IMG/VR virus record: IMGVR_UViG_3300045988_101452
Origin: a virus
Reading direction: 5' to 3' (one strand)
Length of the DNA: 41,581 nt
Each line of letters starts with the position of its first letter. The stretch's first letter is position 1. The translations under genes and the position numbers were made by a program. The notes below the pieces were generated by a model. It worked only from the letters and a program-made list of their open reading frames with translations, did no database searches and was not told where the DNA came from. Positions 1 to 37,350 of this stretch are shown piece after piece.

Positions 1-55
1 GTAATTCAGCTCCTGCATTTATTCCGCCAGACAAGACTGTACTTCCGCCAACAGA
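1..55. repeat. terminal direct repeat (nt 1-55 identical to nt 41527-41581); circular-assembly overlap
   Basis: exact identity of the first and last 55 nt read directly. Confidence 0.9.
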
Positions 56-2302
56 ACCAATAATTCCTAATAATCTTGGAATTAAGGAAGTAGCTTTTGA
101 TAAACCGCCAGAGGCAACAAGTGCTTCGCCTTCAGCAGCTACGCCTCCTTTAGTTACTGTTGAAGCAACTGTTCCAGCTTCAGCAGCAACACCTTTACCT
201 ACAGAAGATTTAATACCTCCGCCAGATAATGCATCAGATAAAGCATTAATACCTGACATTATTTTAAGTTCATTATTAATTTTTTTAACCATCGATAGAG
301 CATCGCCAATTTTATTAACTGCCCAAATACTAGCGAAAACTTTTACTGTATTTACAACAAAATCTTTATGTTCCCCGATAAATTTTACGGTATCAACGAG
401 CTTTTGGAATATTTCAGCGATCCAACCAGCAATTTCTTCAAGCCCTTGCTTGCCCTCTTTAGAATTAAATGCCTTAGCCATTGAAGTGGCTGCGTCAGAT
501 AAAACTGGCAAGAACCTTTGTCCAATCATAATTAAAACAGCCTCCCCAGCTGCTTTGAATTGTTTTAATTCGTTTTGGGTAGATTGCATATTCTTATTTG
601 CAAGATTAACAACATACCCTTGGCCATCAGCTGATTTTTTCACCTTGTCATCGAGTTCGCCTAACTGCTTAACGTTTTCAGAAAGAATTGCACCCGCCTG
701 TTGACCAGTAGTTCCAAATAAAGCGTGGAAGATTTGTCCTTTTTGGAATGAACTTAGTTTTTCTGTATGTTGGTTTAACAATCCGAAAATTTCCGTCATT
801 GACTTCATATTTCCGTTTTGGTCTACAAAATCTTTTGTGCTTAGCCCAATCTTAGTTAAGGCTGCTGCTGCTGCATCACTAGGAGATTGTAGCGAAACAA
901 TCACTTTTCTAAGTCCAGTACCTGCTTTGTCAGCTTCAAGACCATTATTAGAAAGAATACCAATTGCAGAGGCTGTTTCTGACAAGCTTAATTTGCTTTG
1001 ATGAGCCGATGCCCCTACATATTCCATTGCTACACCCATGCTTTGGAAATCAGTTGCTGTCATATCTGCTGCATAGGCCATCTGGTTAACAACTTCTTTT
1101 GTGTTTTTTGTCATGCCAGTAACATCATCAGCTCGTTTACCAAAACTTTCAAGCGCTGCTGTTGAGTTATGTACAACATCAGTAAAATCATCCCCAGAAG
1201 CTACCGAAGCTTGCAACATGGTGGGCAAAGCACCAAGAGCTTGAGCGCTCGTATATCCACGTTTTACAAGTTCTTGATATCCATCTGCTATTTCTTTTTG
1301 AGTTTTACCATACTTAACAGAAAGTTCAGAACCCTGCTCTTGCATTTTATTGACATTTTCTTGAGCTTCTTTAGCTTGTTCACCACCAGTTACTAATAAG
1401 TTAAAAGTTGTTTTATATTGGTTTTGAAGTTCAGAGGCCATTTGTGCGCCCTTAACTGCAGCTGCACCAATTGCAGCAATCCCAAAAGCACTTTGATAAG
1501 CTGCACTCTTTACTTTCTGATATCCTGCTGCCATTACATCGGTAGCTTTCTCAGTTGTTTGATAAACAGTATTTAAACCTTTACCAATGAGAGACTCGGA
1601 ATTAAACGGCTGCATCTTTGTAACTGCCAAGTTAGCTTCCAATAGTTTATTTCTATAGTTTAACAACGACGAAGCAGCTTCATTTACCCTTGTTTTTTGC
1701 TTAACAAGAGTTTCTGAACTTGTACCCTCAGCAGCTTCTAATCGTTTAAGCTCAGTTACTTGGGCCCTATAAATTTCAGTTTGCTTTGCGTATGACGTAG
1801 ATAGACCAGAAACTTCGGCTTTAGCAGCTCCCATTTTATTACGGGTCTTCTCATATAAATCAATTTGAGATTGCATGAGTTTATCATTAGCACTAAGAGA
1901 TTTATTTAAATCATCAATACCTGTTTGTTGATACTCATAAGCTGATTTTGCACGGTTTAATTGCCCTGTCATTGAGGCAAGAGAACGTTCTGCTGTAGTT
2001 AATTGAGCATTATATTTTTGATAAGCCTTCTCACCAGCATCAGTATCTCTATTGATTGTCTTCATACCTTCTGAAAGGTTAGCAATATAAGCTTTTTGCT
2101 TTTCCATTGCTTCACTAAGACCTTCATAGCGATATTTTGATGCAGAAACAGCATCTCCAGCAGATTTAGCCTGTGCTTCATTAATCTGCCATTCACGAGT
2201 ACTATCTTTAACTGCTGATTTTAAGCGGTTGATAGCCTCAACAGCTTTTGTCTCATTCAAGTCAATCCCTGTGGTGACTGAATCAACCATTATATCTGCC
2301 AT
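1..2302 (-). CDS. tail tape measure protein, N-terminal ~767 codons; ORF runs off window start and continues in frame at 41526 across the circular junction
   Basis: ATG at 2302 (minus) preceded by AAAGGAG. Hand translation of minus strand 2302->1 is stop-free and reads MADIMVDSVTTGIDLNETKAVEAINRLKSA... It is coiled-coil and TP901-family TMP-like. Frame matches ORF 38894..41560 when position 1 = 41527. Confidence 0.8.
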   Translation of the reverse strand, partial: MADIMVDSVTTGIDLNETKAVEAINRLKSAVKDSTREWQINEAQAKSAGDAVSASKYRYEGLSEAMEKQKAYIANLSEGMKTINRDTDAGEKAYQKYNAQLTTAERSLASMTGQLNRAKSAYEYQQTGIDDLNKSLSANDKLMQSQIDLYEKTRNKMGAAKAEVSGLSTSYAKQTEIYRAQVTELKRLEAAEGTSSETLVKQKTRVNEAASSLLNYRNKLLEANLAVTKMQPFNSESLIGKGLNTVYQTTEKATDVMAAGYQKVKSAAYQSAFGIAAIGAAAVKGAQMASELQNQYKTTFNLLVTGGEQAKEAQENVNKMQEQGSELSVKYGKTQKEIADGYQELVKRGYTSAQALGALPTMLQASVASGDDFTDVVHNSTAALESFGKRADDVTGMTKNTKEVVNQMAYAADMTATDFQSMGVAMEYVGASAHQSKLSLSETASAIGILSNNGLEADKAGTGLRKVIVSLQSPSDAAAAALTKIGLSTKDFVDQNGNMKSMTEIFGLLNQHTEKLSSFQKGQIFHALFGTTGQQAGAILSENVKQLGELDDKVKKSADGQGYVVNLANKNMQSTQNELKQFKAAGEAVLIMIGQRFLPVLSDAATSMAKAFNSKEGKQGLEEIAGWIAEIFQKLVDTVKFIGEHKDFVVNTVKVFASIWAVNKIGDALSMVKKINNELKIMSGINALSDALSGGGIKSSVGKGVAAEAGTVASTVTKGGVAAEGEALVASGGLSKATSLIPRLLGIIGSVGGSTVLSGGINAGAEL

Positions 2303-2325
2303 TTTTACTCCTTTCTAATTTTTGA

Positions 2326-2357
2326 GTATAAAAAAACGCCTAATTTATTTAGACGTT
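2326..2357 (-). terminator. rho-independent terminator after the moron gene (stem AACGUCUAA/UUAGGCGUU with one G-U, then U-run)
   Basis: inverted repeat aacgcctaa/ttagacgtt with flanking A/T runs. Confidence 0.55.
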
Positions 2358-2383
2358 TTATTTTTATTGAATTGAGTTTTTTA

Positions 2384-2875
2384 TCACTTTAAAATATTTT
2401 GCTTTATTCCGTATGCTAAAGTTGCACTTAGGACAGCCGATGCCCCATATGGTACTACTATCAATATTAAAGCAAAATAGAACATGAGCCCAAGGGATAG
2501 AAACCCTGAGAAAAATATTGAAAATATACTAAAAATATAAATAATAATTGAAGCTGTATAAGTTAATTTCAACTTTTTATTAATAACATTTGCATAGATA
2601 GCACAAGCTAAAATTATGAATGGAAAAATTTTCAAGTTAATAGTATATGTTCCAAAAATTTGTAAAAATTTTAAAACAACGTAAATACCAGTTATTACAG
2701 CTAAAATAATATTAGCTAAATAAGCATTTTTGAATTCTTCGACACTTTTTTTAGGTACATTAATAGCACCAGATTCTTGTTTAATATCAGTTTTATGGTT
2801 AAAATCAAAACCACAATTTGAGCAAAAATTAGATGAACTTATAATTTCTTTTCCACAATTAGGGCAATATTTCAT
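2384..2875 (-). CDS. moron: N-terminal zinc-ribbon (CPNCG...CSNCG) plus multi-TM membrane protein, 163 aa
   Basis: ORF with AGGAGA RBS. Two CxxC pairs then about 4 hydrophobic helices. Own promoter and terminator. Confidence 0.6.
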   Translation of the reverse strand: MKYCPNCGKEIISSSNFCSNCGFDFNHKTDIKQESGAINVPKKSVEEFKNAYLANIILAVITGIYVVLKFLQIFGTYTINLKIFPFIILACAIYANVINKKLKLTYTASIIIYIFSIFSIFFSGFLSLGLMFYFALILIVVPYGASAVLSATLAYGIKQNILK

Positions 2876-2902
2876 GAATTTCTCCTGATTTTTAATAAGT
2901 AA

Positions 2903-2931
2903 ATTATACCCCTATAAACTGTATATTACAA
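2903..2931 (-). promoter_or_regulatory. sigma70-type promoter TTGTAA-17-TATAAT driving the moron gene
   Basis: -35 at 2931-2926, -10 at 2908-2903 on minus strand, 17-nt spacer. Confidence 0.5.
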
Positions 2932-2942
2932 GTGAATAATTA

Positions 2943-3110
2943 TTATTGCCCAAACATCTTCTTCAAATCATCAAATGAAGCCATCTTATTATCTTCATTC
3001 GCTTTAAACACATCAATTAAATCATAATAATCATGATTATCCACTTGCTCTAATGTCCAGTGCCAATTTTCGATAATATTTTTTTCAAATAGCTGTAAAT
3101 CTATTAATTG
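2943..3110 (-). CDS. putative -1 frameshift extension of tail assembly chaperone (gpT-like part of gpGT)
   Basis: stop-free -1 frame overlapping end of 3104..3520 ORF, reads QLIDLQLFEKNIIENWHWTLEQVDNHDYYDLIDVFKANEDNKMASFDDLKKMFGQ*. Position between MTP and TMP is canonical. Confidence 0.35.
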   Translation of the reverse strand, partial: QLIDLQLFEKNIIENWHWTLEQVDNHDYYDLIDVFKANEDNKMASFDDLKKMFGQ

Positions 3111-3520
3111 GTTATGGTGGTAGACTTTTCGTTCTTCAATGCTTGAACTTTTTTTTCGGCAGAATCAACCTCCTCAGTAAACATAGTATCGATTTGATCA
3201 TCATCATACCCCTGAAGTGAAAGAACAAGTTTAGATTGCAAATTCATAAATTGGCCACGGTCAAACTCTTCTAATTTGTCTACTTCTTTTTTATTTAATC
3301 CTAGAATTTCAGTAATAAATTTTTCGGCATTATTAATTACTGACATATCATCAAGAGCGATTGCTTTTGTTAATTCTTCTAGTGTTCCATCCTGAACTGA
3401 AGCAAGTTTTTCTTGGCTTTTTGCTAGTTCCAATTGGTAGGCATGCATTTTTTTAATGTTCTTAATTGAAGTTTTAATTTCAAATGATTCTTCTCTAATT
3501 TCTGGTAATGATAATTTCAT
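3104..3520 (-). CDS. tail assembly chaperone (gpG-like), acidic 138 aa
   Basis: position between major tail protein and TMP; acidic composition. Confidence 0.55.
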   Translation of the reverse strand: MKLSLPEIREESFEIKTSIKNIKKMHAYQLELAKSQEKLASVQDGTLEELTKAIALDDMSVINNAEKFITEILGLNKKEVDKLEEFDRGQFMNLQSKLVLSLQGYDDDQIDTMFTEEVDSAEKKVQALKNEKSTTITN

Positions 3521-3599: not shown

Positions 3600-3623
3600 A
3601 TATAAAAAGCGGATTTCTCCGCT
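3600..3623 (-). terminator. terminator/attenuator after major tail protein gene (AGCGGAGAAAUCCGCU + U-run)
   Basis: inverted repeat agcgga/tccgct plus A-run on plus strand. Confidence 0.5.
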
Positions 3624-7847: not shown

Positions 7848-9026
7848 CTATGGTACTGGCTCATTACTTTGGCCAGTTGTCTTTTTATTTGTATTTTCAG
7901 GGGCTGGTAGGTCTTTAGGAATATATCCTGCTTCTTGCAAGACAAATGTAGCTTGATTTTCAGCTAATGCACCCCATCTTGTAGCAGTACTAATAGTAGA
8001 TAAGTAATTATCACCAAGAGGGTCAATAGCTGGTCTCATGTTAACGCTTATTCGGTCGCTTAACTTATACTCCAATTCACTTATAGCTGGTCTTAAAAAG
8101 CGATTTAAGGCGCTTGCATATTGCCCAGTCATCATTTGGATTGATGATTGTTGATCTCCTTGACCACCAACAAAGCTGTCAGATAATCCATATACTTTGG
8201 CGTATTGTTTAGAAGTCCAATCAGTTTGTGCTAACAATTGAGCTACATTTGATTTAATTTCTAGTGCAGTAAATTCTTCAAGGTCATCTAATACTACAGG
8301 ACCACCACTTCTTGAACGTTTCATAAACGAACGAGAACGAGATGCTTTATCTTTATCACTAAGAAGTCCACCACCTTTAACAGTAAGTACACCAGGAACA
8401 TTTAATGAACTATTCAATGAACTAAGTGTTAATCTATCAGAGGCTCTTTGTATTTTTGATTCACGTCTCAAAGAGTAAAGTGGACTAATTCCAGTTTTAC
8501 CACCATCAATTGATAGTAGTTTCATATGAATTAAATCGCTTTGAGGAGCTGAAAAAATAGGATCTATCTTAGGGTCATCAAAAGTAACGTTATAATACAT
8601 TCCGTTTTCATACTCGAAATAATAAGTATTTACTTGAGATGGCCTTAAATATTCCCATTTCATATCAGCGCCATTAGCATTTCTCCAACGATAAGCGAAT
8701 GCTTCGCCTCCTAAAAGCAACTGCGCAAACATTGATTGCCAAAACCCATGCTTATTAGCATTAGTACTTGGATTATCAATGATTCCTTGATTCTTTTTCT
8801 TTTCAGCATTGATTTTAACTATTGCCAAATCACTAGATAGTTGCAAGATAATAGAAAATAAGTCTGAATTTCTTAATGCTGCACGAGCTGAAACCCATTC
8901 ATTATTATCACCAAGCAAACTTTCCATTATTTGCGCATCATTTCCATCTGGAAAATAGCTTTGAACACTGCCAACTTCTGGCGGATCATTTGTTTGGTTG
9001 ATAAAGTTTAATATTGGCAAAATCAA
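7848..9026 (-). CDS. portal protein, HK97 family
   Basis: 392 aa, position after TerL, portal-like sequence. Confidence 0.8.
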   Translation of the reverse strand: MILPILNFINQTNDPPEVGSVQSYFPDGNDAQIMESLLGDNNEWVSARAALRNSDLFSIILQLSSDLAIVKINAEKKKNQGIIDNPSTNANKHGFWQSMFAQLLLGGEAFAYRWRNANGADMKWEYLRPSQVNTYYFEYENGMYYNVTFDDPKIDPIFSAPQSDLIHMKLLSIDGGKTGISPLYSLRRESKIQRASDRLTLSSLNSSLNVPGVLTVKGGGLLSDKDKASRSRSFMKRSRSGGPVVLDDLEEFTALEIKSNVAQLLAQTDWTSKQYAKVYGLSDSFVGGQGDQQSSIQMMTGQYASALNRFLRPAISELEYKLSDRISVNMRPAIDPLGDNYLSTISTATRWGALAENQATFVLQEAGYIPKDLPAPENTNKKTTGQSNEPVP

Positions 9027-12343: not shown

Positions 12344-12415
12344 TTCAGGATAACGGGATTGAACCGTTCTATTCTAGCTTATGAAACTAGCGTGACGCCT
12401 TGCCACCCATCCTGT
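12344..12415 (-). tRNA. tRNA-like element with CAU anticodon loop (Met-like); non-canonical (A1-A72 mismatch, G8G9)
   Basis: hand-folded cloverleaf: acceptor ACAGGAT/ATCCTGA, D GTGG/TCAC, anticodon stem CTAGT/GCTAG with loop TTCATAA, T-arm AACGG-TTCAATC-CCGTT. Confidence 0.35.
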
Positions 12416-24195: not shown

Positions 24196-24223
24196 TTTCT
24201 CCTTAATCATGTCTTGCCCGACA
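24196..24223. repeat. 28-bp perfect direct repeat copy A (tttctccttaatcatgtcttgcccgaca)
   Basis: identical 28-mer at 28665-28692; partial inverted copy at 30132-30144. Confidence 0.9.
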
Positions 24224-24225
24224 TT

Positions 24226-24495
24226 TTAGTAATAAAAATCATGTAAATCTTCCAAGAGATAGAAGACTGAACCGCCTCTATTTATTGAAGGTAATCCGTT
24301 TTCTCTCCACTTTTTCAACGTATCTGATGACATGTGGAATTCTTTCAACAAATCAACCTGCCTGATTTCTCCGGTCTTACTTTCATATTTAAACAGCTCC
24401 TTTTGGAATTTCAGCCATTCATTCGTCATCTTACGAAACTCTTCCAGGACGCCATTGGCTAGATACGCAGCCATTGGATCATATCGTTCTCCCAT
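24226..24495 (-). CDS. HTH (excisionase/MerR-like) DNA-binding protein, candidate Xis
   Basis: SDTLKKWRENGLPSINRGGSVFYLLEDL HTH-like segment. Confidence 0.4.
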   Translation of the reverse strand: MGERYDPMAAYLANGVLEEFRKMTNEWLKFQKELFKYESKTGEIRQVDLLKEFHMSSDTLKKWRENGLPSINRGGSVFYLLEDLHDFYY

Positions 24496-24507: not shown

Positions 24508-25254
24508 CTAACTAGCTAAATCTTGTAAGAATTTGTTTACAAAATAGATTTGACCTTTGCCTGTTACTTTGGGCGTTTTGGTTACGGTGATCTTCCCACT
24601 ATTATGAACGTGAGTGTTTTCGGTAAACTCTAAAATACCTAAATTCATCGAACGTTGAGTTGGTGAGTTGTAGTCACTACCAATTTTCTTGACAAGGTAT
24701 CCATTATCTCTAAGCCAAGTAAATAATCGTTTCTCTCCGATATCAATTCCATTTTGTTTCAGGATTTTAGCTAAATCTCGAATGAGAATCGTGTTTTCGG
24801 AAGCTGAAACACTATCAGCGAATAACGCTTTTGGTTTCATTTGGCTTTTTTCAAGTTCAAGTTGCTTAATCTGATTTCCTGCTTGGAGTAGCAAATCAGC
24901 TAAACCATTACCAGAGATAACATCTTGAGCTTTTGCATCCGTCATATAAGCTCCGTGCTTGCGGATTGTTTTCAAAATTTCTTTTACTTTTTTCTTGAAA
25001 ACTTTAGCTTGTGGCTTTTTAGATGACATAAGAACTTCGTAAAGTCCATCTTCGGTTAAAAACCACATATTACGATTTTGACCTGATGCAAGGATTGGTT
25101 GCATTAGCTTTTCATCATCATCAACTGTTTTTAGCATTTCGGACGCTCTTGAGTGTTCGATGAGTTCTGCAATATCTTTTGCGAGAAATAAAGGATTTTC
25201 TGCTGTTCCGTAGATTTTGGCATTAAATCCATCAATATTTTGTAATTCATTCAT
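24508..25254 (-). CDS. antirepressor (Bro-N N-terminal, KilA-C/ANT C-terminal)
   Basis: Bro-N-like N-terminus; follows cro-like gene. Confidence 0.65.
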   Translation of the reverse strand: MNELQNIDGFNAKIYGTAENPLFLAKDIAELIEHSRASEMLKTVDDDEKLMQPILASGQNRNMWFLTEDGLYEVLMSSKKPQAKVFKKKVKEILKTIRKHGAYMTDAKAQDVISGNGLADLLLQAGNQIKQLELEKSQMKPKALFADSVSASENTILIRDLAKILKQNGIDIGEKRLFTWLRDNGYLVKKIGSDYNSPTQRSMNLGILEFTENTHVHNSGKITVTKTPKVTGKGQIYFVNKFLQDLAS

Positions 25255-26039: not shown

Positions 26040-26075
26040 GTAAGTGACTAAACTAAAATTATATTGGAGGTTCTT

Positions 26076-26516
26076 ATGAACGATTTTAAATTGCCCGAGC
26101 ATAGGCAAGAGTATATCTCAAATTTCATGTCAGAAAATATCTATGTAGTTGAGGGGAAAAACGATATTAATTTTTCTGCTACATTGATTAATTTAAATTA
26201 TGAAAATGGTGCAGTCTACTATTTTTCGATATATATTTATGAAATCGAAAAGTATGAACTACTCCTTTCTGGAAAGCTTGAAGATTATCAAGCTCGAAAG
26301 GGAGGGATCGGTCAGAAAGTCGGACTTGTTCCCTTACTATCAAAATCAGACTCTTATTCACTTCCTAGCTATATTGATCTCCCAATACAAATGACTGTAA
26401 AAAACTTAAAATATGATACAGATAAAATTTATGCTGCAGTCTTCAAACTCAAAAATAAAGAGGGAAAAGAAATTTCGAAATCAGTGACATATTTGAAAGG
26501 GACTAATAATGGCTAA
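26076..26516 (+). CDS. cassette gene A: soluble 146-aa protein of unknown function
   Basis: GGAGG RBS 5 nt upstream of ATG 26076; no recognisable domain. Confidence 0.6.
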   Translation: MNDFKLPEHRQEYISNFMSENIYVVEGKNDINFSATLINLNYENGAVYYFSIYIYEIEKYELLLSGKLEDYQARKGGIGQKVGLVPLLSKSDSYSLPSYIDLPIQMTVKNLKYDTDKIYAAVFKLKNKEGKEISKSVTYLKGTNNG

Positions 26517-26802
26517 TAAATTTATCGATAACGAATTTGGCTCAATGTCGTACCAAGATAAAACTGAACCTTATGTTAAAAATACAATTCATGACGAAAT
26601 AAAAGCTCCTCTAATTGAAATTGCAAATTTAAAAGAACGAATCCTAAAAATAGAGTCAAAGATGGAATCTCAAGAAGATTTTGAAAGAATATCGAACGAG
26701 AGGCATAATAGATGGATTGCAATCATAACTGCTATTATTACGTTTTTTGTAGGTATACCAGGTATAATTTCTCTCATAATTCAGTTGTTTTCAAAGCATT
26801 AA
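26509..26802 (+). CDS. cassette gene B: 97-aa protein, coiled-coil N-terminus and C-terminal TM anchor; start overlaps stop of gene A (ATGGCTAA)
   Basis: translational coupling overlap; hydrophobic C-terminus IAIITAIITFFVGIPGIISLIIQLF. Confidence 0.6.
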   Translation: MANKFIDNEFGSMSYQDKTEPYVKNTIHDEIKAPLIEIANLKERILKIESKMESQEDFERISNERHNRWIAIITAIITFFVGIPGIISLIIQLFSKH

Positions 26803-27272: not shown

Positions 27273-27854
27273 ATGGGCAGAGGAACTTTAACACCTCAAG
27301 AAGAGGAATTAAAAAAGGTTATATCTAATAATATTAGAACAAAAATAAAAGAAGAAGGCATCTCTCAAGCTGAATTTGCTAGAAGAGCTGGAATACCTCC
27401 AACAACTTTGTCTGGATATATAAAAGGTGTAACTAGACCTAATGCTGGTAACCTTCAAAAAATTTCGGACACACTTGGCCTCCTAAAGTCTGATATTGAC
27501 CCTTCATATAAACAAGGCTACTCATTGGAAGATTGGAACAATAATAAAAAACAATCTCATTTGGTGAAAAAAATCACTGAAATCAGTTCTCAACTTGAAG
27601 AACCTCGCCAAAAAATAGTACTTGATACAGCTTCTTCTCAATTGGAAGAGCAAGAAAAGGCTAAAAAAGCTATTAAATCAAAACCAAAAATAACTCCTCT
27701 GTTCGATATAAATTCTCCGCTTACTGACGAAGAACTTCAAGAGGCTGTTGACGAAGCTGTAGCTTTTGATGGTGTCCCTCTGACAGATAGAGAAAAAGAA
27801 CTCTACAAGCATTTGCTCCGTGAAGCATGGGAAGAAGACCATGGCAGGGGGTGA
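27273..27854 (+). CDS. cI-like repressor, XRE-family HTH, 193 aa
   Basis: ISQAEFARRAGIPPTTLSGYIKG HTH; divergent from early promoter. Confidence 0.7.
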   Translation: MGRGTLTPQEEELKKVISNNIRTKIKEEGISQAEFARRAGIPPTTLSGYIKGVTRPNAGNLQKISDTLGLLKSDIDPSYKQGYSLEDWNNNKKQSHLVKKITEISSQLEEPRQKIVLDTASSQLEEQEKAKKAIKSKPKITPLFDINSPLTDEELQEAVDEAVAFDGVPLTDREKELYKHLLREAWEEDHGRG

Positions 27855-27859
27855 AATAT

Positions 27860-28294
27860 ATGTCAGTTATAAAGGAGTTATTGTTAGGACTCTCAGTAAA
27901 AATAAAATACTATAATCCTTCTGATTATCCGCATCTTAAAGATGGTATGAAATTTAATATTAGAGGACTAACATATATTTTTATTGATATCTTTAATAGT
28001 GAAATGGTCACTCAGAATATATTACTTCACGAAATGGGTCATGTTTCTTTTGGGCATAGGCATCTCGATTGTCGTTCCTCTGGTTGGGATAGAAAGCAAG
28101 AAAGAGAAGCTGACCGCTATATGATTGAATACAGAGCCGATGAGTGGTTAGCTCAATTCGACTGGGAACCAGACATTATTGATTATGATGCATTTATTGA
28201 GCATTTTGAGTTAGAAAAGCGTCATTATGGGTTAGTTGTTGAGGTGTTTGATGAAATGATCGGTCATGCTCAACTACATAGCCACTGTTTATAG
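27860..28294 (+). CDS. ImmA/IrrE-family zinc metalloprotease (HEMGH)
   Basis: HExxH motif LLHEMGHVSFGH; directly downstream of repressor. Confidence 0.65.
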   Translation: MSVIKELLLGLSVKIKYYNPSDYPHLKDGMKFNIRGLTYIFIDIFNSEMVTQNILLHEMGHVSFGHRHLDCRSSGWDRKQEREADRYMIEYRADEWLAQFDWEPDIIDYDAFIEHFELEKRHYGLVVEVFDEMIGHAQLHSHCL

Positions 28295-28307: not shown

Positions 28308-28643
28308 ATGGATTACACAGAATTTAGAAAATATGTTGAAGAAAACACTCGTGCCCAAGGTAAGTTTTTGGAAAAAGCTACAGTTTACTTGCTAGATAAA
28401 AACGCTAGTAGAAAACCAGCTGCTAAATGGACTGATTCCCGCATCGAAAAAGAAGCTAACAAGATGTGGGACATGAACATAAGCGGTGCTTTTAACAACG
28501 TGGCAGAAGGAATTAAAAATGCAGAAGGTAAGCCTCGCTTTCATAATCACGAGGAACAAGTTACTTACTGGATACAATTTATGAATGAGTATGAGTTTTT
28601 AGAAAACTTCACTGAAGGTATCGATGATATGGAATTTGAATAA
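28308..28643 (+). CDS. hypothetical acidic protein between protease and integrase
   Basis: ORF with GGGGTGA RBS. Confidence 0.5.
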   Translation: MDYTEFRKYVEENTRAQGKFLEKATVYLLDKNASRKPAAKWTDSRIEKEANKMWDMNISGAFNNVAEGIKNAEGKPRFHNHEEQVTYWIQFMNEYEFLENFTEGIDDMEFE

Positions 28644-28664: not shown

Positions 28665-28692
28665 TTTCTCCTTAATCATGTCTTGCCCGACA
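28665..28692. repeat. 28-bp perfect direct repeat copy B, upstream of integrase
   Basis: identical to 24196-24223. Confidence 0.9.
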
Positions 28693-28710
28693 ATAGAGCA
28701 GGAGAAAAAA

Positions 28711-29892: not shown

Positions 29893-29911
29893 TTTTTTGA
29901 GTTTTTTTCCG

Positions 29912-30201
29912 AACGTAACTAAAAACGTAACTAACTGATATAATGACATCTGAAATCCCTTTATATAAGGGGTTCTAAGGATTTGTTGTGATACAGAGCT
30001 ATTATGGCATACTGTGTCAATAAATGTCAATAGATACCGCTAAACCTTGTTTTGTGGGATTTATAAAAATTATTGTACTAATGAATATCTATGAGTTACT
30101 TCTAAAACGTAACTAAAAACGTAACTAATTTTTGTCGGGCAAGAGGCTGTATATCTAAGATATACAGTTTTTTTATTTTAATTAACGTAACTAAAAAAAC
30201 T
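29912..30201. repeat. attP-like region with iterated aacgtaactaa(a) units (candidate integrase arm-type sites)
   Basis: aacgtaactaaaaacgtaactaa at 29912-29934 and 30106-30128; partial at 30185-30201. Confidence 0.6.
30147..30178 (+). terminator. plus-strand terminator ctgtatatct-a-agatatacag + T-run
   Basis: 10-bp perfect inverted repeat then tttttttatttt. Confidence 0.6.
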
Positions 30202-30239
30202 CCTTTTAGAAGTTTCTACTATTTTAATATACATTTTTA

Positions 30240-30313
30240 TGGTTCTTGCTGGACTCGAACCAGCGACCGAACGGTTATGAGCCATTAGCTCTGACCAACT
30301 GAGCTAAAGAACC
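30240..30313 (-). tRNA. tRNA-Met (anticodon CAU)
   Basis: canonical cloverleaf by hand: GGTTCTT acceptor, D-arm AGCTCAGTTGGTCAGAGCT, anticodon loop CTCATAA, T-arm GCTGG-TTCGAGT-CCAGC. Confidence 0.8.
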
Positions 30314-30438
30314 GAGTATGATAATCTGTAGCACTTATAAATTTATAAGTGTGGACGGTACTGCAGATTATCAAAGATACTGTAAAAGAAATAATTTTCT
30401 CGTCCACTAAATATATTATAACACACTACTATAAATAA

Positions 30439-30580
30439 TTGACAATTGTCTGAAAAATTGATAATATTTAAATTGTTAGTGCCTCCTATGTTTTGTATAT
30501 AGTAAACTTTTTCTGAACTTGTACTAACACACATCATCCTCTAGTTGGACTCCTTGAAGTCATCCAGCTAGAGCTTTTTT
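30439..30580 (+). ncRNA. candidate sRNA: promoter TTGACA-17-TAATAT (30439-30467) to terminator T1 (30539-30580); about 105 nt, contains CCUCC
   Basis: near-consensus promoter and 11-bp stem + U6 terminator; no ORF. Confidence 0.35.
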
Positions 30581-30585
30581 ATTTG

Positions 30586-30609
30586 AAAAAAGCCGCTCCG
30601 AAGAGCAGC
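30586..30609 (-). terminator. minus-strand terminator T2 (GCUGCUC-UUCG-GAGCGGC + U6)
   Basis: inverted repeat with UUCG tetraloop and U-run. Confidence 0.55.
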
Positions 30610-30659
30610 TAATGAGGAGAGTAAAACTCTTCATCGATGTCCAATAATATTATAGCACA

Positions 30660-30777
30660 AAAAAAGCCCCGCGAGAGTGAGGCATTTAGCAAAATATGCA
30701 GTGAGTATTTCATGGATTAAAATACTCAGTGATTATTTATGGTAACTAATTATAGCGCTATCATTATTTTTTGTCAA
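30660..30777 (-). ncRNA. candidate sRNA: perfect-consensus promoter TTGACA-17-TATAAT (30777-30749) to terminator T3 (30684-30660); about 80 nt with a 12-bp hairpin
   Basis: exact consensus hexamers with 17-nt spacer; internal inverted repeat cactgagtattt/aaatactcactg; U7 after hairpin. Confidence 0.4.
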
Positions 30778-30809
30778 GAAAAAAGCGTCCCAGTTAGGAG
30801 AGAGACGCT
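30778..30809 (-). terminator. minus-strand terminator T4 (AGCGUC...GACGCU + U6), directly abutting the consensus promoter
   Basis: inverted repeat agcgtc/gacgct, A-run 30778-30783 on plus. Confidence 0.5.
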
Positions 30810-30870
30810 TAGGAGTCTTTATGAAAAATTTTTTTTGGAATAAGAACATTATATAACTTTCCGTTCTTTT

Positions 30871-30901
30871 TGTAAAGAAAAAGCCCTGACCGAAGCCAGG
30901 G
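30871..30901 (-). terminator. late-operon terminator T5 (CCCUGGC-UUCG-GUCAGGG + U-rich)
   Basis: 7-bp stem with UUCG tetraloop right after stop of the last lysis ORF. Confidence 0.6.
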
Positions 30902-30906
30902 TTAAT

Positions 30907-31032
30907 TTATTTTCTGCTATTTAATTCAGCCAAGATAATCAGACCGACAACTATAATCAGCCAAATCCACCAGTAATCTAAAAATAGTTTCATATCGGGC
31001 AATTCTTTTATTCTTTGGAAAAATTCTACCAT
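30907..31032 (-). CDS. small membrane ORF (41 aa) immediately downstream of endolysin
   Basis: ATG 3 nt after lysin stop; MVEFFQRIKELPDMKLFLDYWWIWLIIVVGLIILAELNSRK. Confidence 0.35.
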   Translation of the reverse strand: MVEFFQRIKELPDMKLFLDYWWIWLIIVVGLIILAELNSRK

Positions 31033-31035
31033 AGT

Positions 31036-33191: not shown

Positions 33192-34109
33192 TTAACCTCC
33201 TATAAAGTAAACGCCTGTCTTGTCGGTTAGTGCATTATATTCTGCTTGCGTAACAACGTTGATTACAGCGTCTTTACCATTAGTGCCGTCTTTACCAGAT
33301 GGTCCCTGAATACCTTGAATCCCTTGAGGTCCAGTGTCTCCCTTGATACCTTGAACACCTTGTATACCTTGTGGTCCAGTGTCTCCCTTGATACCAGTAG
33401 CACCTGACATATCAGTAATAAAAGTAAATTCAGTACCATTCCACAGATACAATTTTGCGTTGTCTGGGTCTTCAACGGTTGATGAAATCATAACAAAGTC
33501 TCCCTTTGTTAAACCGTCACCACTCATTGACGCAACACTTGGAAACGTTTCGGCAATTGAAAAATCTTTACCAGCTACTCCTTGAACACCTTGCTGTCCT
33601 TGTTCTCCCTGCTCGCCACGCTCGCCCTGAATACCCTGAATTCCTTGCGGTCCTATTTCTCCCTTTTCGCCTTGTGGACCAACCTTTCCTTCTGGTAGGT
33701 TATCAATAAGTTCTTTGGCTAAGTCACTAAACTGTTGCTGGAATTCGCCTAAAGTAATTGATGAAATCAAGTTACCGGAAATACCAGTAGCGTTTTGATT
33801 GATGGATAACTTGACGAAACCAGAATCAGGATAAATCTCATAGCCGCTTGAACTGCTCAACCACAACTCTAATAAGTAACTACCAACAGGTAAGTCACTC
33901 AAATCTCCAGAACTAATCACAATATGTTTATCGACCCATTTTGCTGAAACACTTTTGAGGTAGCCGATATCAACTTGTTTAATTTTGATAGTGGCTGATA
34001 AAGTGCTGTCACTGATAATCACACCGTTTTGTAATGCTCTAAAACTTAAGTCTGTCTCATTATCTGCGAATTTAAAACTAGTCACATCTAGTGTTAATAT
34101 TTTAGCCAT
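33192..34109 (-). CDS. tail fibre/baseplate protein with collagen-like G-X-Y repeats
   Basis: GPQGEKGEIGPQGIQGIQGERGEQGEQGQQGVQG and GIKGDTGPQGIQGVQGIKGDTGPQGIQGIQGPSGKDG. Confidence 0.6.
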   Translation of the reverse strand: MAKILTLDVTSFKFADNETDLSFRALQNGVIISDSTLSATIKIKQVDIGYLKSVSAKWVDKHIVISSGDLSDLPVGSYLLELWLSSSSGYEIYPDSGFVKLSINQNATGISGNLISSITLGEFQQQFSDLAKELIDNLPEGKVGPQGEKGEIGPQGIQGIQGERGEQGEQGQQGVQGVAGKDFSIAETFPSVASMSGDGLTKGDFVMISSTVEDPDNAKLYLWNGTEFTFITDMSGATGIKGDTGPQGIQGVQGIKGDTGPQGIQGIQGPSGKDGTNGKDAVINVVTQAEYNALTDKTGVYFIGG

Positions 34110-34737: not shown

Positions 34738-37350
34738 CTAATCCATTGGGCAAATTAAAAATCCATTAAACCCTTGCCCAGAAGTCGTATTACTTGCTGG
34801 GACAATCGCAACTTTTCCATCACCAGAATCATTGTATTGAATACGTGTAGAGTTAGTTGCTGACATAACACCAAAGGAGTCATATCCATCTGAAGCTCTT
34901 CCATTTGCTGGAACATAACAAAGAGTATTTGGCTGATTTCCCGTTATAGCTGGGCAAACAATTTTTCTAAAGTGGATGTATAAAACACCATTTTTAACTC
35001 GATAACGAGCTTTTCCCCCAGAACCAATACTAAAACCACTGGCAAGTGTTAGATTTGTCCAAGGAACATCAGTTGATAAATCAGTACCTCGAGGTGTAAG
35101 TTGAGCATAGTTTCCATCTGAGTCGCTTATGAACGGTCCTTGAAAATTAATCCCAGCTAATCTGTAAAATCCTGTATTAATGTTCGTAAATTTCTGAGCT
35201 AGTCCTTGTTCAGAATCAAGTGCTATATCGTTTCTAGTATTAACAGTTCCGTCTGTCTTTGAAATTATAATATGATTATCTTTGATTTCAGTAGAGATTG
35301 AAACTTGACCATTAGTTGTTGTGCTTACAAACTCACCATCAGTAATTGTTAAATTGTTACCGTTGATATTATGTGCATTTATTTCGCTTAATATCCAGTT
35401 AGTTCCTGACCAATAGTATTCAGTGCCAGATAATATAACTGTTCCGTCACTCGCTGTAAGGTCAGACGTACCTAAATATTTCCAAGTTAAACCTTTGAAT
35501 CGAGTGGTCGGCTCAGTATCGGAAACAACTTTACCTGGGTCACCGTTACTTCCAGCAGGGCCTTGAATACCTTGGTCTCCCTTATCGCCTTTATCACCTT
35601 TAATCAAGCTCCATGTATACTTACTTGGGTCTGTAGAATCAGTGCTCGTAAAGTCTGTATATTGTCCGATATAAGTTTTACCAGTCGCATTTGATACATC
35701 AAATCCAGCCGTACCGGTTGAGTTTGTAGCATAAGCGATGTGAAGATAACTTGTTTTTCCGTCAGCTCCGGCTTGTCCGGGGATACCAGTTGCTCCAGGG
35801 TCACCTTTTAATCCTTGCGGACCTTGCGGACCCTGTGCGCCCTTAGCGCCATCATTCACATTAGTGATAGTCACCGACTGACTTGCGACTACTTTACCGC
35901 CAACTGTCGCTTTAAAGCTGTAAACTGCCTTATTCGCAACTCCTCCGGCATCCACAGTGATTTCTTGAACGTTTGCGACAACCGTTCCGTCTTTCGACCA
36001 TTCGTAGCTGTCTGCGTCTGTTTCAGTCGTATCTGACCCAAAGTAGATGTGGGCGCCTAATGTAGTCGTTCCTGTTCCATTTTTAAATTGAGTACCGTTG
36101 GTAGAGGTTATGTCCGGCCGATAAGGAGTGCTATCTTTAATCAACTGAGCCAACCGAGCTTCTAAATCATCTGAAATTCCACTCTCTAATTCAATGTAAT
36201 TACTAAAGGTCAATTTATTATTAGAAGGGTTAGAAAAACTTATCTCAAGCTCAGAAACACGGGCTTGAAGAATCAAGCCACCTGTTTGAGTGTTAAAGTT
36301 TTCATCTTGGATTCGTACCGTATCGCCAATGGATAAAGGTTTACCATCGCCAACTGCTTGACTCACTAATTGACTTTTAGCACTCACTTCATAAGTGACT
36401 AATGCATAAGCATATTTTTTAAACTGGCTAAGGGCATAGCCCCACATATCATTAACATTAGTATATTCAGTTTCAAAATCCTTACGTATCCAGATATCAC
36501 CAGTTGCAGATTGTATTTGTGATGGATATAATTCAGCAGATAATGGCGCAAAAGCTAATGTTGAGCCTTTTCTCTTATAAAATTCTTCTACACCATCCGC
36601 ATTTTTAACAGACCATTCTGAATTATTCCAATTTAAACCATCTGCTCCAGTTATATTTGTAGCATTAAAAATTTGAGTACGATCTACTGTTCTTCTAACT
36701 TCTGAAACATTTTTTCCAAAATATAAAGTAACATCATTTCGCCATGTTCCCACCCCTTGAATATTTGCGCCATCATTAGCTTTATAAATATTTAAGGTCA
36801 TCCCTTTTAATGTCCCATCATCATTTAGCTCTGTCACAAATTCAAATTCTGCATCAAAGTTACCAATTACAGATAAGAGCCGAGCAAGTTTGGTTTCTTG
36901 GCCATCATAATTGATTGTACGAGTAAGACTAGAGACTTCATTAATCCCAATCATAATTTGAGCATTAGAAATGAGCTGCATTTGGTCAAAATACCATTGG
37001 ATATTATGACTTGAGCTATTGACTAAAGGATTCGCTTGTTCATTTCTAAGTTCAAGATTCAAAGTCGCAGTATTCAAGGTAATGACATCATCTGTTTCTT
37101 CAGAGGTCAGAACACTAAATAGAAAATCTTCTCCTTCATAAGTAAAACTAATATAGGCTTGGTCATTTAGAAATTGACAATAATCTTGCAAAGCTCCGTT
37201 TTTAAATTTATTAACCGAGAAATCAAAGGTAGCTGCCCCTTCCGCCAAATAGCGGTGCCAATTATCATTGAAAAAAGAAGGGAGCCCAGGCACTTCGTTA
37301 CTTAAGAACCCCACTCGATTCATTTGGTTGTCGTGAATTGTAATCTGCAT
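34738..37350 (-). CDS. tail-associated lysin/anti-receptor (Tal) with collagen-like repeats; start MQITIHDN overlapping Dit stop (TAATG)
   Basis: N-terminus typical of prophage tail endopeptidase family; GAKGAQGPQGPQGLKGDPGATGIPGQAGADGK repeats. Confidence 0.7.
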   Translation of the reverse strand: MQITIHDNQMNRVGFLSNEVPGLPSFFNDNWHRYLAEGAATFDFSVNKFKNGALQDYCQFLNDQAYISFTYEGEDFLFSVLTSEETDDVITLNTATLNLELRNEQANPLVNSSSHNIQWYFDQMQLISNAQIMIGINEVSSLTRTINYDGQETKLARLLSVIGNFDAEFEFVTELNDDGTLKGMTLNIYKANDGANIQGVGTWRNDVTLYFGKNVSEVRRTVDRTQIFNATNITGADGLNWNNSEWSVKNADGVEEFYKRKGSTLAFAPLSAELYPSQIQSATGDIWIRKDFETEYTNVNDMWGYALSQFKKYAYALVTYEVSAKSQLVSQAVGDGKPLSIGDTVRIQDENFNTQTGGLILQARVSELEISFSNPSNNKLTFSNYIELESGISDDLEARLAQLIKDSTPYRPDITSTNGTQFKNGTGTTTLGAHIYFGSDTTETDADSYEWSKDGTVVANVQEITVDAGGVANKAVYSFKATVGGKVVASQSVTITNVNDGAKGAQGPQGPQGLKGDPGATGIPGQAGADGKTSYLHIAYATNSTGTAGFDVSNATGKTYIGQYTDFTSTDSTDPSKYTWSLIKGDKGDKGDQGIQGPAGSNGDPGKVVSDTEPTTRFKGLTWKYLGTSDLTASDGTVILSGTEYYWSGTNWILSEINAHNINGNNLTITDGEFVSTTTNGQVSISTEIKDNHIIISKTDGTVNTRNDIALDSEQGLAQKFTNINTGFYRLAGINFQGPFISDSDGNYAQLTPRGTDLSTDVPWTNLTLASGFSIGSGGKARYRVKNGVLYIHFRKIVCPAITGNQPNTLCYVPANGRASDGYDSFGVMSATNSTRIQYNDSGDGKVAIVPASNTTSGQGFNGFLICPMD

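What the first reader, a model, noticed from the sequence alone, without database searches (positions are those of the whole stretch)
2303..2940. Self-contained moron between gpGT and TMP: zinc-ribbon multi-TM protein with own promoter and terminator
A 163-aa ORF sits inside the otherwise co-linear tail module. It has TTGTAA-17-TATAAT, AGGAGA, an N-terminal CPNCG...CSNCG zinc ribbon, about 4 TM helices and a strong terminator. Autonomous promoter/terminator units in this position are classic morons expressed from the prophage. Membrane proteins of this kind are candidates for superinfection exclusion (block of DNA injection) or other host-modifying functions. The zinc-ribbon plus TM combination is not a named Sie family as far as I know.
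Basis: partly seen in the sequence, partly recalled or inferred. Interest (0 to 1): 0.7.

Follow-up and report, generated by a model that had tools for sequence, protein, structure and literature searches.

The report
Membrane-protein moron in phage tail operon
A lactococcal phage carries, between two tail-assembly genes, a small add-on gene with its own on and off signals that encodes a zinc-binding membrane protein; related phages leave this slot empty or fill it with other membrane proteins, so it is a good but untested candidate for phage-resistance genes.

Summary
A 163-aa ORF (2384-2875) lies between the gpG/gpGT tail chaperone (stop at 2943) and the tape measure gene (ATG 2302). It has TTGTAA-17-TATAAT, AGGAGA, an N-terminal CPNCG...CSNCG zinc ribbon, four hydrophobic helices and an 11-bp hairpin plus U7. 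The terminator is moderate (-10.2 kcal/mol), not strong.

The gene is already in databases: BK5-T ORF14 and phage 4268 orf42 (99% identical), PHROG 22898, function unknown.

Comparative data support a moron:
- Among 45 related loci surveyed (44 related loci plus this window), 24 have an empty 47-50 nt site.
- The rest carry this gene, a 241-aa two-TM protein, a 225-aa DUF4352 lipoprotein, or a 121-aa DUF805 membrane protein.
- All variants share a sigma-A promoter format and a common terminator; three share a near-identical promoter, and two of these also share the 5'UTR/RBS.
- GC is 25% against 35-39% in neighbouring genes.
- dN/dS is 0.13 overall and 0.07 in the TM domain.

HK97 gp15, the original moron and a superinfection-exclusion protein, occupies the same slot. 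No sequence similarity links this protein to gp15, Sie2009 or any PADLOC model. Function is inferred, most likely a membrane-level block of phage DNA entry. It is a new member of a known kind.

The parts
3104..3520 (-). Tail assembly chaperone gpG (138 aa), upstream neighbour
   Evidence: Pfam PF06896 Phage_TAC_3, E 1.4e-42; PHROG 1346
2943..3155 (-). gpT extension reached by a -1 frameshift at A AAA AAA (3155-3149). The gpGT product is 192 aa and its stop codon ends at 2943. The cassette begins immediately after.
   Evidence: Frameshift reconstruction gives an open frame to 2943. This stretch is conserved in all related loci.
2903..2931 (-). Sigma-A type promoter: -35 TTGTAA (2931-2926), 17-nt spacer, -10 TATAAT (2908-2903)
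   Evidence: It is one of only 5 TTG-N20-TATAAT sites in the window. The same format is kept in divergent cassettes L005, L008, L009, L036 and L041. It is annotated as putative -35/-10 in the BK5-T record.
2881..2886 (-). Ribosome-binding site AGGAGA, 5 nt upstream of the ATG
   Evidence: Sequence read. The identical 5'UTR/RBS is shared with the lipoprotein cargo.
2384..2875 (-). CDS of the 163-aa zinc-ribbon four-TM protein (stop included), equal to BK5-T ORF14 and 4268 orf42
   Evidence: 98-99% identity. PHROG 22898 end-to-end, E 6e-108. dN/dS 0.13 against the 66%-identical L005 homolog.
2804..2869 (-). N-terminal zinc ribbon, aa 3-24 (CPNCG...CSNCG), predicted cytoplasmic
   Evidence: PF13240, 32 bits, and PF13248, 28.9 bits, both above their cut-offs. 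All four Cys are invariant in homologs.
2405..2731 (-). Membrane domain, aa 49-157: four helices with inferred N-in/C-in topology from the positive-inside rule
   Evidence: Hydropathy and Lys positions. AF2 helices (low confidence). dN/dS 0.07.
2330..2359 (-). Intrinsic terminator: 11-bp stem AAAACGUCUAA/UUAGGCGUUUU, 5-nt loop, U7 run. It ends about 14 nt before the TMP RBS.
   Evidence: dG -10.2, z -6.1. It is conserved behind all four cargo types, and L036 shows a C-G to U-A compensatory change.
2..2302 (-). N-terminal 767 codons of the tape measure protein, downstream neighbour. It continues at the other end of the window because the assembly is circular.
   Evidence: PF10145, E 3e-46, and PHROG 167. 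A 55-nt terminal repeat joins 1-55 to 41527-41581.

Best explanation
This is a moron: an accessory transcription unit sitting in a fixed slot of the tail operon of BK5-T-like (Sandinevirus/P335) lactococcal phages, immediately after the gpGT stop codon and immediately before the tape measure gene. SHOWN in silico: the unit consists of a sigma-A promoter, RBS, 163-aa CDS and hairpin-U7 terminator. Relatives with near-identical flanking genes have the slot empty, or filled with one of three unrelated envelope proteins placed between a promoter of the same format and the same terminator type. The coding sequence is under purifying selection, strongest in the membrane domain. INFERRED: the promoter fires from the repressed prophage, and the gene is also read through from the late operon. 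The protein inserts in the cytoplasmic membrane with its zinc ribbon and both termini inside and only about 8-residue loops outside. There it most likely acts as a superinfection-exclusion factor. It would interfere inside the membrane with channel formation or DNA passage by the tape measure or tail tip of incoming siphophages, or with a host membrane factor they need. This is the way HK97 gp15, which occupies the same slot, is thought to act. The terminator, of which a weaker version also exists at empty sites, probably also attenuates late transcription before the low-copy tape measure gene.
For: - Presence/absence: among 45 unique surveyed loci, 24 have an empty 47-50 nt site and the others carry a 536-864 nt insert at exactly the same junctions. 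TAC is mostly 96-99% identical across surveyed loci (three hits 83-84%).
- Shared expression shell: the Zn-ribbon, 241-aa and lipoprotein cargos share a near-identical promoter (TTGTAA/TTGTAT-17-TATAAT) and the terminator AAAACGTCTAAATAAATTAGGCGTTTTTTT. The Zn-ribbon and lipoprotein cassettes also share the 5'UTR/RBS up to the start codon.
- Divergent shells (L005, L008, L009, L041) keep TTGnnn-17-TATAAT despite different spacers.
- The terminator folds at -10.2 kcal/mol (z -6.1) and shows a compensatory C-G to U-A change in L036.
- GC is 25% in the cassette against 35-39% in the flanks.
- Purifying selection: 15 synonymous against 1 non-synonymous difference to BK5-T; omega 0.13 overall and 0.07 in the TM domain against L005.
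- All four cargos are membrane or envelope proteins. One is a DUF4352 lipoprotein, and DUF4352 is the domain of the mycobacterial membrane antiphage protein Mpr (PMC12596739).
- HK97 has the same layout, gpGT then gp15 moron then terminator then TMP. gp15 is an inner-membrane Sie protein expressed from the prophage (PMC3594210).
- The phage is temperate: integrase, CI-like repressor and ImmA-like protease are present. No Sie2009-type TM gene lies between repressor and integrase.
Against: - No expression or phenotype data could be found. The BK5-T lysogen-transcript papers are not held.
- There is no sequence or profile similarity to any known Sie or defence protein.
- The protein exposes almost nothing outside the membrane, so any block must be intramembrane or cytoplasmic.
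- The gene is kept in phage 4268, listed among lytic P335 phages. Prophage expression therefore cannot be its only selective context.
- The structure model is too poor (pLDDT 57.6) to add functional information.
- Guilt by position is indirect evidence.
Confidence: 0.45

Rival explanations
1. The protein is a lytic-cycle accessory membrane protein. It would be co-transcribed with the late tail operon and act late in infection, for example by tuning lysis timing, by preventing secondary adsorption or injection into an already infected cell, or by countering a host abortive-infection system. It would not be a prophage-expressed conversion gene.
For: The gene has the same orientation as the late operon and lies inside it, so it must be transcribed late regardless of its own promoter. 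It is retained at 99% identity in phage 4268, which is listed among lytic P335 phages, and at 98-99% in the dairy isolates CHPC148 and CHPC836.
Against: A perfect -10 and a 17-nt spacer are conserved across divergent cassettes, which would be unnecessary for a gene served by the late promoter. The slot is empty in about half of otherwise near-identical phages, so no lytic step depends on it. The window has a separate lysis module with its own lysin.
Confidence: 0.2
2. It is a lysogenic-conversion gene unrelated to phage defence. A small membrane protein would alter host physiology, for example ion or small-molecule flux, envelope stress tolerance, or signalling through the cytoplasmic zinc ribbon.
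For: One alternative cargo is a DUF805 inner-membrane protein, a family common in bacterial chromosomes. A 93-aa chromosomal relative of the TM domain (P0006, 37% identity over 87 aa) lies among transporter and regulator genes rather than in a prophage. No defence-model hit was found.
Against: The TM domain has no detectable relatives outside this tiny family among 1.84 billion representatives, which is atypical for a general physiological function. The precedents for this exact slot (HK97 gp15) and for the DUF4352 cargo (Mpr) are both anti-phage.
Confidence: 0.15
3. It is an abortive-infection or toxic membrane effector. The four-TM domain would permeabilise the membrane when the cytoplasmic zinc ribbon senses an infection cue, killing the cell before phage release.
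For: Small multi-TM effectors are a recurrent output module of defence systems (general knowledge). The cytoplasmic zinc ribbon plus a poorly conserved linker could act as a sensor or interaction module.
Against: It is a single gene with no partner. There is no PADLOC match. It sits behind a near-consensus promoter that looks constitutive, which would be hazardous for a toxin. It is co-expressed in the phage's own late operon without an obvious antidote.
Confidence: 0.1
4. It is a structural or tail-assembly component, for example a membrane-associated helper of tape measure assembly, or a spurious ORF.
For: Only its position between the tail chaperone and the tape measure genes.
Against: It is absent from 24 of 45 related loci, including complete functional phages such as bIL286 and CHPC974, and it is replaced by unrelated proteins in others. 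A spurious ORF is excluded by dN/dS of 0.02-0.13 and by the invariant Cys ligands.
Confidence: 0.03

Closest known systems
HK97 gp15 moron (Juhala et al. 2000; Cumby et al. 2012; reviewed in PMC3594210)
   Same: It occupies the identical slot: directly after the frameshifted gpGT gene and directly before the tape measure gene, followed by a terminator. It is absent from most close relatives, encodes a small cytoplasmic-membrane protein, and differs in base composition. gp15 is expressed from the prophage and blocks genome entry. Both have a distant chromosomal small-membrane-protein relative: YebO for gp15 and P0006 here.
   Different: There is no sequence similarity. gp15 is 62 aa with one TM helix and no zinc ribbon, whereas this protein is 163 aa with a zinc ribbon and four TM helices. 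The host is Gram-positive, so there is no periplasm or outer membrane. Function is untested here.
BK5-T ORF14 / phage 4268 orf42 / PHROG 22898
   Same: It is the same gene: 98-99% amino-acid identity, the same flanks, and the same promoter, which is annotated as putative -35/-10 in NC_002796. The PHROG match is end to end.
   Different: Nothing of substance differs. The database entries carry no function ('zinc ribbon domain-containing protein', 'hypothetical').
Lactococcal Sie2009-type superinfection exclusion proteins (Tuc2009 orf2; bIL286 orf2)
   Same: They are prophage-encoded membrane-associated proteins of P335 phages of similar size (173 aa). Their reported action is to block DNA entry of some 936-type phages (as cited in PMC6127208).
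   Different: There is no sequence similarity (E 5.7). Sie2009 genes lie between repressor and integrase, whereas this gene lies in the tail operon. Sie2009 has no zinc ribbon.
Mpr (DUF4352) of Mycobacterium smegmatis and Ltp-type lipoproteins of streptococcal phages
   Same: They are envelope-anchored anti-phage proteins acting at or just after DNA injection (PMC12596739; PMC3952083, listed). A DUF4352 lipoprotein is an alternative occupant of this very slot, behind the same promoter and terminator.
   Different: They relate to the sister cargo, not to the zinc-ribbon protein, which has no lipobox, no DUF4352 and almost no extracellular mass.

Membership tests
Moron (sense of Juhala et al. 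2000) | Extra DNA between two genes that are adjacent in related phage genomes | tested here: met
   gpGT and TMP are 47-50 nt apart in 24 related loci and 626 nt apart here, with the same junctions.
Moron (sense of Juhala et al. 2000) | Own promoter upstream and own terminator downstream | tested here: met
   Sequence evidence only. TTGTAA-17-TATAAT is conserved in format across divergent cassettes. The hairpin plus U7 folds at dG -10.2, z -6.1, with a compensatory change in L036.
Moron (sense of Juhala et al. 2000) | Base composition different from the surrounding genes | tested here: met
   Cassette GC is 25.4% against 34.7% (TAC to tail tube) and 38.7% (TMP). Part of this reflects the Ile/Phe/Lys/Asn-rich membrane protein.
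Moron (sense of Juhala et al. 2000) | Transcribed from the repressed prophage | not testable with these tools
   No transcript data were reachable. BK5-T lysogen papers are not held, and the KF147 supplements are images only.
Pfam PF13240 / PF13248 zinc ribbon | Profile match above the gathering score, with two CxxC knuckles | tested here: met
   32.0 bits (cut-off 25) and 28.9 bits (cut-off 27) over aa 1-24. C4, C7, C18 and C21 are invariant.
Sie2009 family (lactococcal P335 prophages) | Sequence similarity to Tuc2009 orf2 | tested here: not met
   BLASTP E 5.7 over 8 residues.
Sie2009 family (lactococcal P335 prophages) | Gene located between the repressor and integrase genes | tested here: not met
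   The gene is in the tail operon. The ORFs between the CI-like repressor and the integrase here are an ImmA-like HEMGH protein and a soluble 111-aa protein.
HK97 gp15 / YebO family | Sequence similarity to gp15 | tested here: not met
   No local alignment at E <= 100.
HK97 gp15 / YebO family | Position gpGT, then moron, then terminator, then TMP | tested here: met
   The HK97 record lists gpGT ending at 8145, gp15 at 8203-8391, a terminator at 8398-8422 and TMP from 8435. The layout here is the same.
Ltp-type lipoprotein Sie | Signal peptide with lipobox, and surface-exposed domains | tested here: not met
   The N-terminus is MKYCPNCG, a zinc ribbon with no signal peptide. The first hydrophobic segment starts near aa 50.
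Known defence systems (PADLOC-DB 2.0) | Match to any defence-protein profile | tested here: not met
   The only hit is a spurious E 0.045 match of the zinc knuckle to a homing-endonuclease model. Two sister proteins (the 241-aa cargo and P0003) gave none; the DUF4352 and DUF805 cargos were not scanned against PADLOC.
Virion structural or tail-assembly protein | Conserved presence in all phages sharing the tail module | tested here: not met
   It is absent or replaced in most related loci whose TAC is mostly 96-99% identical.

The most novel reading that the evidence does not exclude
The gpGT/TMP junction of BK5-T-like lactococcal phages is a dedicated, recombination-exchangeable expression slot with a conserved promoter format and a conserved terminator. 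It carries a rotating set of envelope-targeted anti-phage proteins. The zinc-ribbon four-TM protein would then found a new, lineage-restricted superinfection-exclusion family that blocks tape-measure-mediated DNA entry from within the membrane. The 241-aa, DUF4352-lipoprotein and DUF805 cargos would be three further uncharacterised exclusion or defence proteins.
Probability: 0.3. Interest if true: 0.6.

Novelty: new member of a known kind. Interest (0 to 1): 0.42.

Why it matters
P335-type prophages are present in most dairy Lactococcus starter strains, and they shape which virulent phages can attack a culture. The known lactococcal Sie genes all lie next to the repressor. A second, overlooked slot in the tail operon would give four ready-made candidates for new phage-resistance determinants. 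Their cargos are swapped between near-identical phages behind a promoter of conserved format and a common terminator. A published survey that lists the 225-aa gene only as 'phage-related protein' states that lysogenic conversion is uncommon in dairy prophages (PMC3757294), and this slot may qualify that view. It would also extend the HK97 gp15 paradigm, a membrane moron placed just before the tape measure gene, to Gram-positive siphophages. That raises a directly testable question: is this position favoured for proteins that act on tape-measure-dependent DNA entry? If the protein has no exclusion phenotype, the finding remains an ordinary, already-catalogued accessory gene.

Tried and rejected
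- Remote homology: the word-indexed search found only three close clusters plus zinc-ribbon noise. An exhaustive HMM search with the TM domain against 1.84 billion representatives added only a 93-aa chromosomal relative. A PDB profile search returned only zinc-knuckle noise such as L32 and RpoM.
- Structure: AF2 on the four-sequence alignment gave pLDDT 57.6 and pTM 0.45. I therefore ran no fold search, because matches to such a model are meaningless.
- Defence libraries: PADLOC gave nothing for the Zn-ribbon protein, the 241-aa cargo or P0003; the DUF4352 and DUF805 cargos were not scanned.
- Literature: the BK5-T genome paper (PMID 11472933), the BK5-T lysogen-transcript paper (PMC167717) and the HK97 gp15 primary paper (PMC3430355) are not held. 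Searches for BK5-T with orf14 or moron found nothing relevant. KF147 carries the sister lipoprotein cargo (pp224), but its transcriptome supplements hold only per-gene PNG files.
- Mobile-element idea: I tested whether the promoter or terminator shell is a mobile cassette found elsewhere. Exact scans of IMG/VR returned only this locus, so I rejected it.
- Tai and Tab tail-assembly-blocking defences: considered and set aside. Tab lies between the terminase genes and its reported target is the tape measure protein/tail assembly, not membrane entry.
- Holin role: rejected. There is no holin-family hit, the lysis module is elsewhere, and the slot is dispensable.

Full report
**What is there**

The feature is on the minus strand. 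Reading 5'->3' on that strand:
- The tail tube gene is 4247-3633 (PF04630). It is followed by the tail assembly chaperone gpG, 3520-3104 (PF06896).
- A -1 frameshift on A AAA AAA (3155-3149) opens a frame that runs to a stop at 2945-2943. This gives a 192-aa gpGT.
- Right after that stop come -35 TTGTAA (2931-2926), a 17-nt spacer, -10 TATAAT (2908-2903), AGGAGA (2886-2881) and ATG at 2875.
- The ORF ends at 2384 (163 aa).
- An 11-bp hairpin with a U7 run follows at 2359-2330. It folds at -10.2 kcal/mol, z -6.1.
- The tape measure gene starts at 2302 (PF10145, PHROG 167).

The protein has the following features:
- A PF13240/PF13248 zinc ribbon at aa 1-24, above both gathering scores.
- A poorly predicted linker (aa 28-43).
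- Four hydrophobic helices.
- Lys clusters before TM1 (PKKSVEEFK), between TM2 and TM3 (NKKLKL) and at the C-terminus. By the positive-inside rule these imply N-in/C-in topology, with only about 8-residue external loops. This topology is an inference.

**Is it more than chance?**

A relaxed promoter scan is uninformative in this AT-rich DNA: 39 sites found against 39.6 expected. The strict pattern TTG-N20-TATAAT occurs only five times on both strands of the window (1.16 expected; 2 of 100 shuffles reached 5). One of the other sites lies directly upstream of the CI-like repressor gene.

The comparative evidence is stronger. Six cassette versions with different spacer sequences all keep TTGnnn, 17 nt, then a perfect TATAAT. 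These are the window/BK5-T, L036, L009, L008, L005 and L041. The terminator is conserved behind every version, and L036 carries a compensatory C-G to U-A change.

**Identity**

The protein is 98-99% identical to four known phage genes: BK5-T ORF14 (NC_002796 8821-9312), phage 4268 orf42, and genes of CHPC148 and CHPC836. The BK5-T record already annotates putative -35/-10 signals there. PHROG 22898 matches end to end, with unknown function. The exact sequence is in NCBI as 'zinc-ribbon domain protein'. It is seen on 275 contigs and in L. lactis chromosomes.

The window itself is a complete circular assembly. It has a 55-nt terminal overlap, giving a 41,526-bp genome. It is a mosaic temperate P335/Sandinevirus-type phage with integrase, CI-like repressor, ImmA-like protease, antirepressor and a GH25 lysin.

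**How narrow the family is**

- The word-indexed search found only clusters at 98%, 90% and 66% identity.
- The 66% member (P0003, 258 aa) has an extra N-terminal DUF4236.
- An exhaustive profile search with the TM domain against 1.84 billion representatives added only P0006. This is a 93-aa chromosomal membrane protein, 37% identical over 87 aa and not in a prophage.
- All phage homologs sit between the TAC and TMP genes.
- There are no PADLOC hits, no PDB relatives, and no similarity to Tuc2009 Sie2009 or HK97 gp15.

**The slot**

I used the TAC protein to fetch 38 IMG/VR loci and added the phage-database and metagenome loci. I then measured what lies between the gpT stop codon and the TMP RBS. 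After removing duplicate records, the counts are:

| Content of the slot | Unique loci | Notes |
|---|---|---|
| Empty, 47-50 nt | 24 | keeps a weaker hairpin, ACCUAA-UGU-UUAGGU plus U7, -7.3 kcal/mol; its 3' arm is homologous to the filled-site terminator |
| Zinc-ribbon gene | 8 | includes the window, the 90% variant and the DUF4236 variant (three contigs, counted once) |
| 241-aa two-TM protein | 7 | includes CHPC1175; no family match |
| 225-aa lipoprotein | 5 | lipobox LASC; DUF4352, E 2e-10 |
| 121-aa membrane protein | 1 | DUF805, E 3e-22 |

CHPC148 and CHPC836 also carry the zinc-ribbon gene, but I did not measure their slots.

Further points about the slot:
- The zinc-ribbon and lipoprotein cassettes share the whole 67-nt promoter/5'UTR up to the start codon. 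They also share the roughly 55 nt that include the terminator. The 241-aa cassette shares the promoter and terminator.
- TAC identity to the window is mostly 96-99% across surveyed loci (three hits 83-84%). The cargos are therefore exchanged between near-identical backbones.
- Exact scans of IMG/VR for the promoter shell and for the terminator return only this locus. It is a fixed slot, not a wandering element.
- Cassette GC is 25% against 35-39% in the flanks.

**Selection**

Against BK5-T there are 15 synonymous differences and 1 non-synonymous difference. Against the 66%-identical L005 gene, omega is 0.13 overall, 0.07 in the TM domain, 0.31 in the ribbon and 0.47 in the linker. The protein is functional. 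Its membrane domain is constrained far beyond simple hydrophobicity, which suggests specific intramembrane contacts.

**Closest precedent**

[quoted passage not shown] It is expressed from the prophage, inserts in the inner membrane and blocks genome entry. Sensitivity to it maps to the incoming phage's tail tube or tape measure region (PMC3594210).

The HK97 record shows the same layout: gpGT, then gp15, then a terminator, then TMP. gp15 also has chromosomal small-membrane relatives (YebO), paralleling P0006 here.

The DUF4352 sister cargo has a second precedent. Mpr of M. smegmatis is a membrane antiphage protein whose DUF4352 domain is reported to be of phage origin. Phages escape it by a minor-tail-protein mutation (PMC12596739).

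**Interpretation**

Moron status passes all criteria that can be tested in silico. The mechanism is inferred, not shown. I favour a membrane-level block of DNA entry (superinfection exclusion), for four reasons:
- The slot precedent of HK97 gp15.
- The envelope location of every alternative cargo.
- The strong constraint on the TM domain.
- The absence here of a Sie2009-type gene next to the repressor.

Three points count against it. There are no expression or phenotype data. The protein has almost no external mass. The gene is retained in phage 4268, which is listed among lytic P335 phages, so a late-infection role is a live rival.

The terminator sits about 14 nt before the TMP RBS in filled and empty sites alike. 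Another hairpin follows the tail tube gene (3623-3608, -11.2 kcal/mol). These probably step down late transcription toward the low-copy tape measure protein. The moron's 'own' terminator may therefore be a modified resident attenuator.

**Novelty and score**

The sequence and its putative promoter are already in public records. The kind, a membrane-protein moron before the tape measure gene, is known from HK97. In the literature reachable here, I did not find the four-cargo, shared-shell slot described for lactococcal phages. One survey lists the 225-aa cargo simply as 'phage-related protein' and considers lysogenic conversion uncommon in dairy prophages (PMC3757294).

I rate it a new member of a known kind, of moderate interest. 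It is mainly a directly testable source of candidate resistance genes for dairy lactococci.

Noticed in passing
Related loci: L024 3647-4324 (also L015, L017, L027, L036); L004 2180-2905 (also L009, L018, L023, L026, L029, L057); L041 1065-1430: Three unrelated cargos fill the same gpGT/TMP slot, each between a promoter of the same format and the same terminator type: a 225-aa DUF4352 lipoprotein, a 241-aa two-TM protein with no family match, and a 121-aa DUF805 membrane protein. All are uncharacterised. The lipoprotein corresponds to phiKW2 gene 1792 and KF147 pp224.
   Followed up: partly
window 1-55 and 41527-41581: There is a perfect 55-nt direct repeat at the two ends of the window. The window is therefore a circular assembly of a 41,526-bp phage genome, cut inside the tape measure gene. 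The gene is intact across the junction.
   Followed up: yes
window 12344-12415 (-) and 30240-30313 (-): The phage carries two tRNA-Met (CAT) genes. One lies in the lysin-integrase intergenic region, where attP is expected, and scores 66.7 bits against Rfam tRNA.
   Followed up: partly
window 29893-31035, minus strand: The roughly 1.1-kb lysin-to-integrase region has no convincing ORF. It holds a near-consensus promoter TTGACA-17-TATAAT (30777-30749), several hairpin-plus-U-run terminators and the tRNA. It may encode small RNAs or a second moron-like unit in the classical lysogenic-conversion position.
   Followed up: no
window 26064-26802, plus strand: Two ORFs of 150 aa and 97 aa lie on the lysogeny strand upstream of the CI-like repressor. 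The 97-aa product ends in a hydrophobic tail anchor (WIAIITAIITFFVGIPGIISLIIQLF). It could be another prophage-expressed membrane protein.
   Followed up: no
window 27827-28294 (+) and 28308-28643 (+): Between the repressor and the integrase there is an ImmA/IrrE-like HEMGH metalloprotease ORF and a soluble 111-aa ORF. The membrane Sie2009-type gene usual in P335 prophages is absent.
   Followed up: partly
window 3608-3623 (-); empty sites such as L002 2194-2242: A terminator-like hairpin follows the tail tube gene (-11.2 kcal/mol). A weaker one (-7.3 kcal/mol) precedes the tape measure gene even in phages without the cassette. This suggests stepwise attenuation of the late tail operon.
   Followed up: partly
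window 33304-33669 and 35552-35605: There are 45-nt tandem or dispersed repeats with a 9-nt substructure inside the distal tail genes on the minus strand. They look like collagen-like Gly-X-Y repeats of the BK5-T type.
   Followed up: no
window 24196-24238 and 28665-28707: A 43-nt direct repeat (84% identical) overlaps the start of the integrase gene and also occurs at a site about 270 nt downstream of the antirepressor gene (24508-25254, minus strand). Its meaning is unknown.
   Followed up: no
L005 5001-5777 (P0003); L061 5001-5282 (P0006): A 66%-identical homolog carries an extra N-terminal DUF4236 domain but sits in the same slot. A 93-aa relative of the TM domain, without a zinc ribbon, lies in a non-prophage bacterial chromosomal context.
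   Followed up: partly
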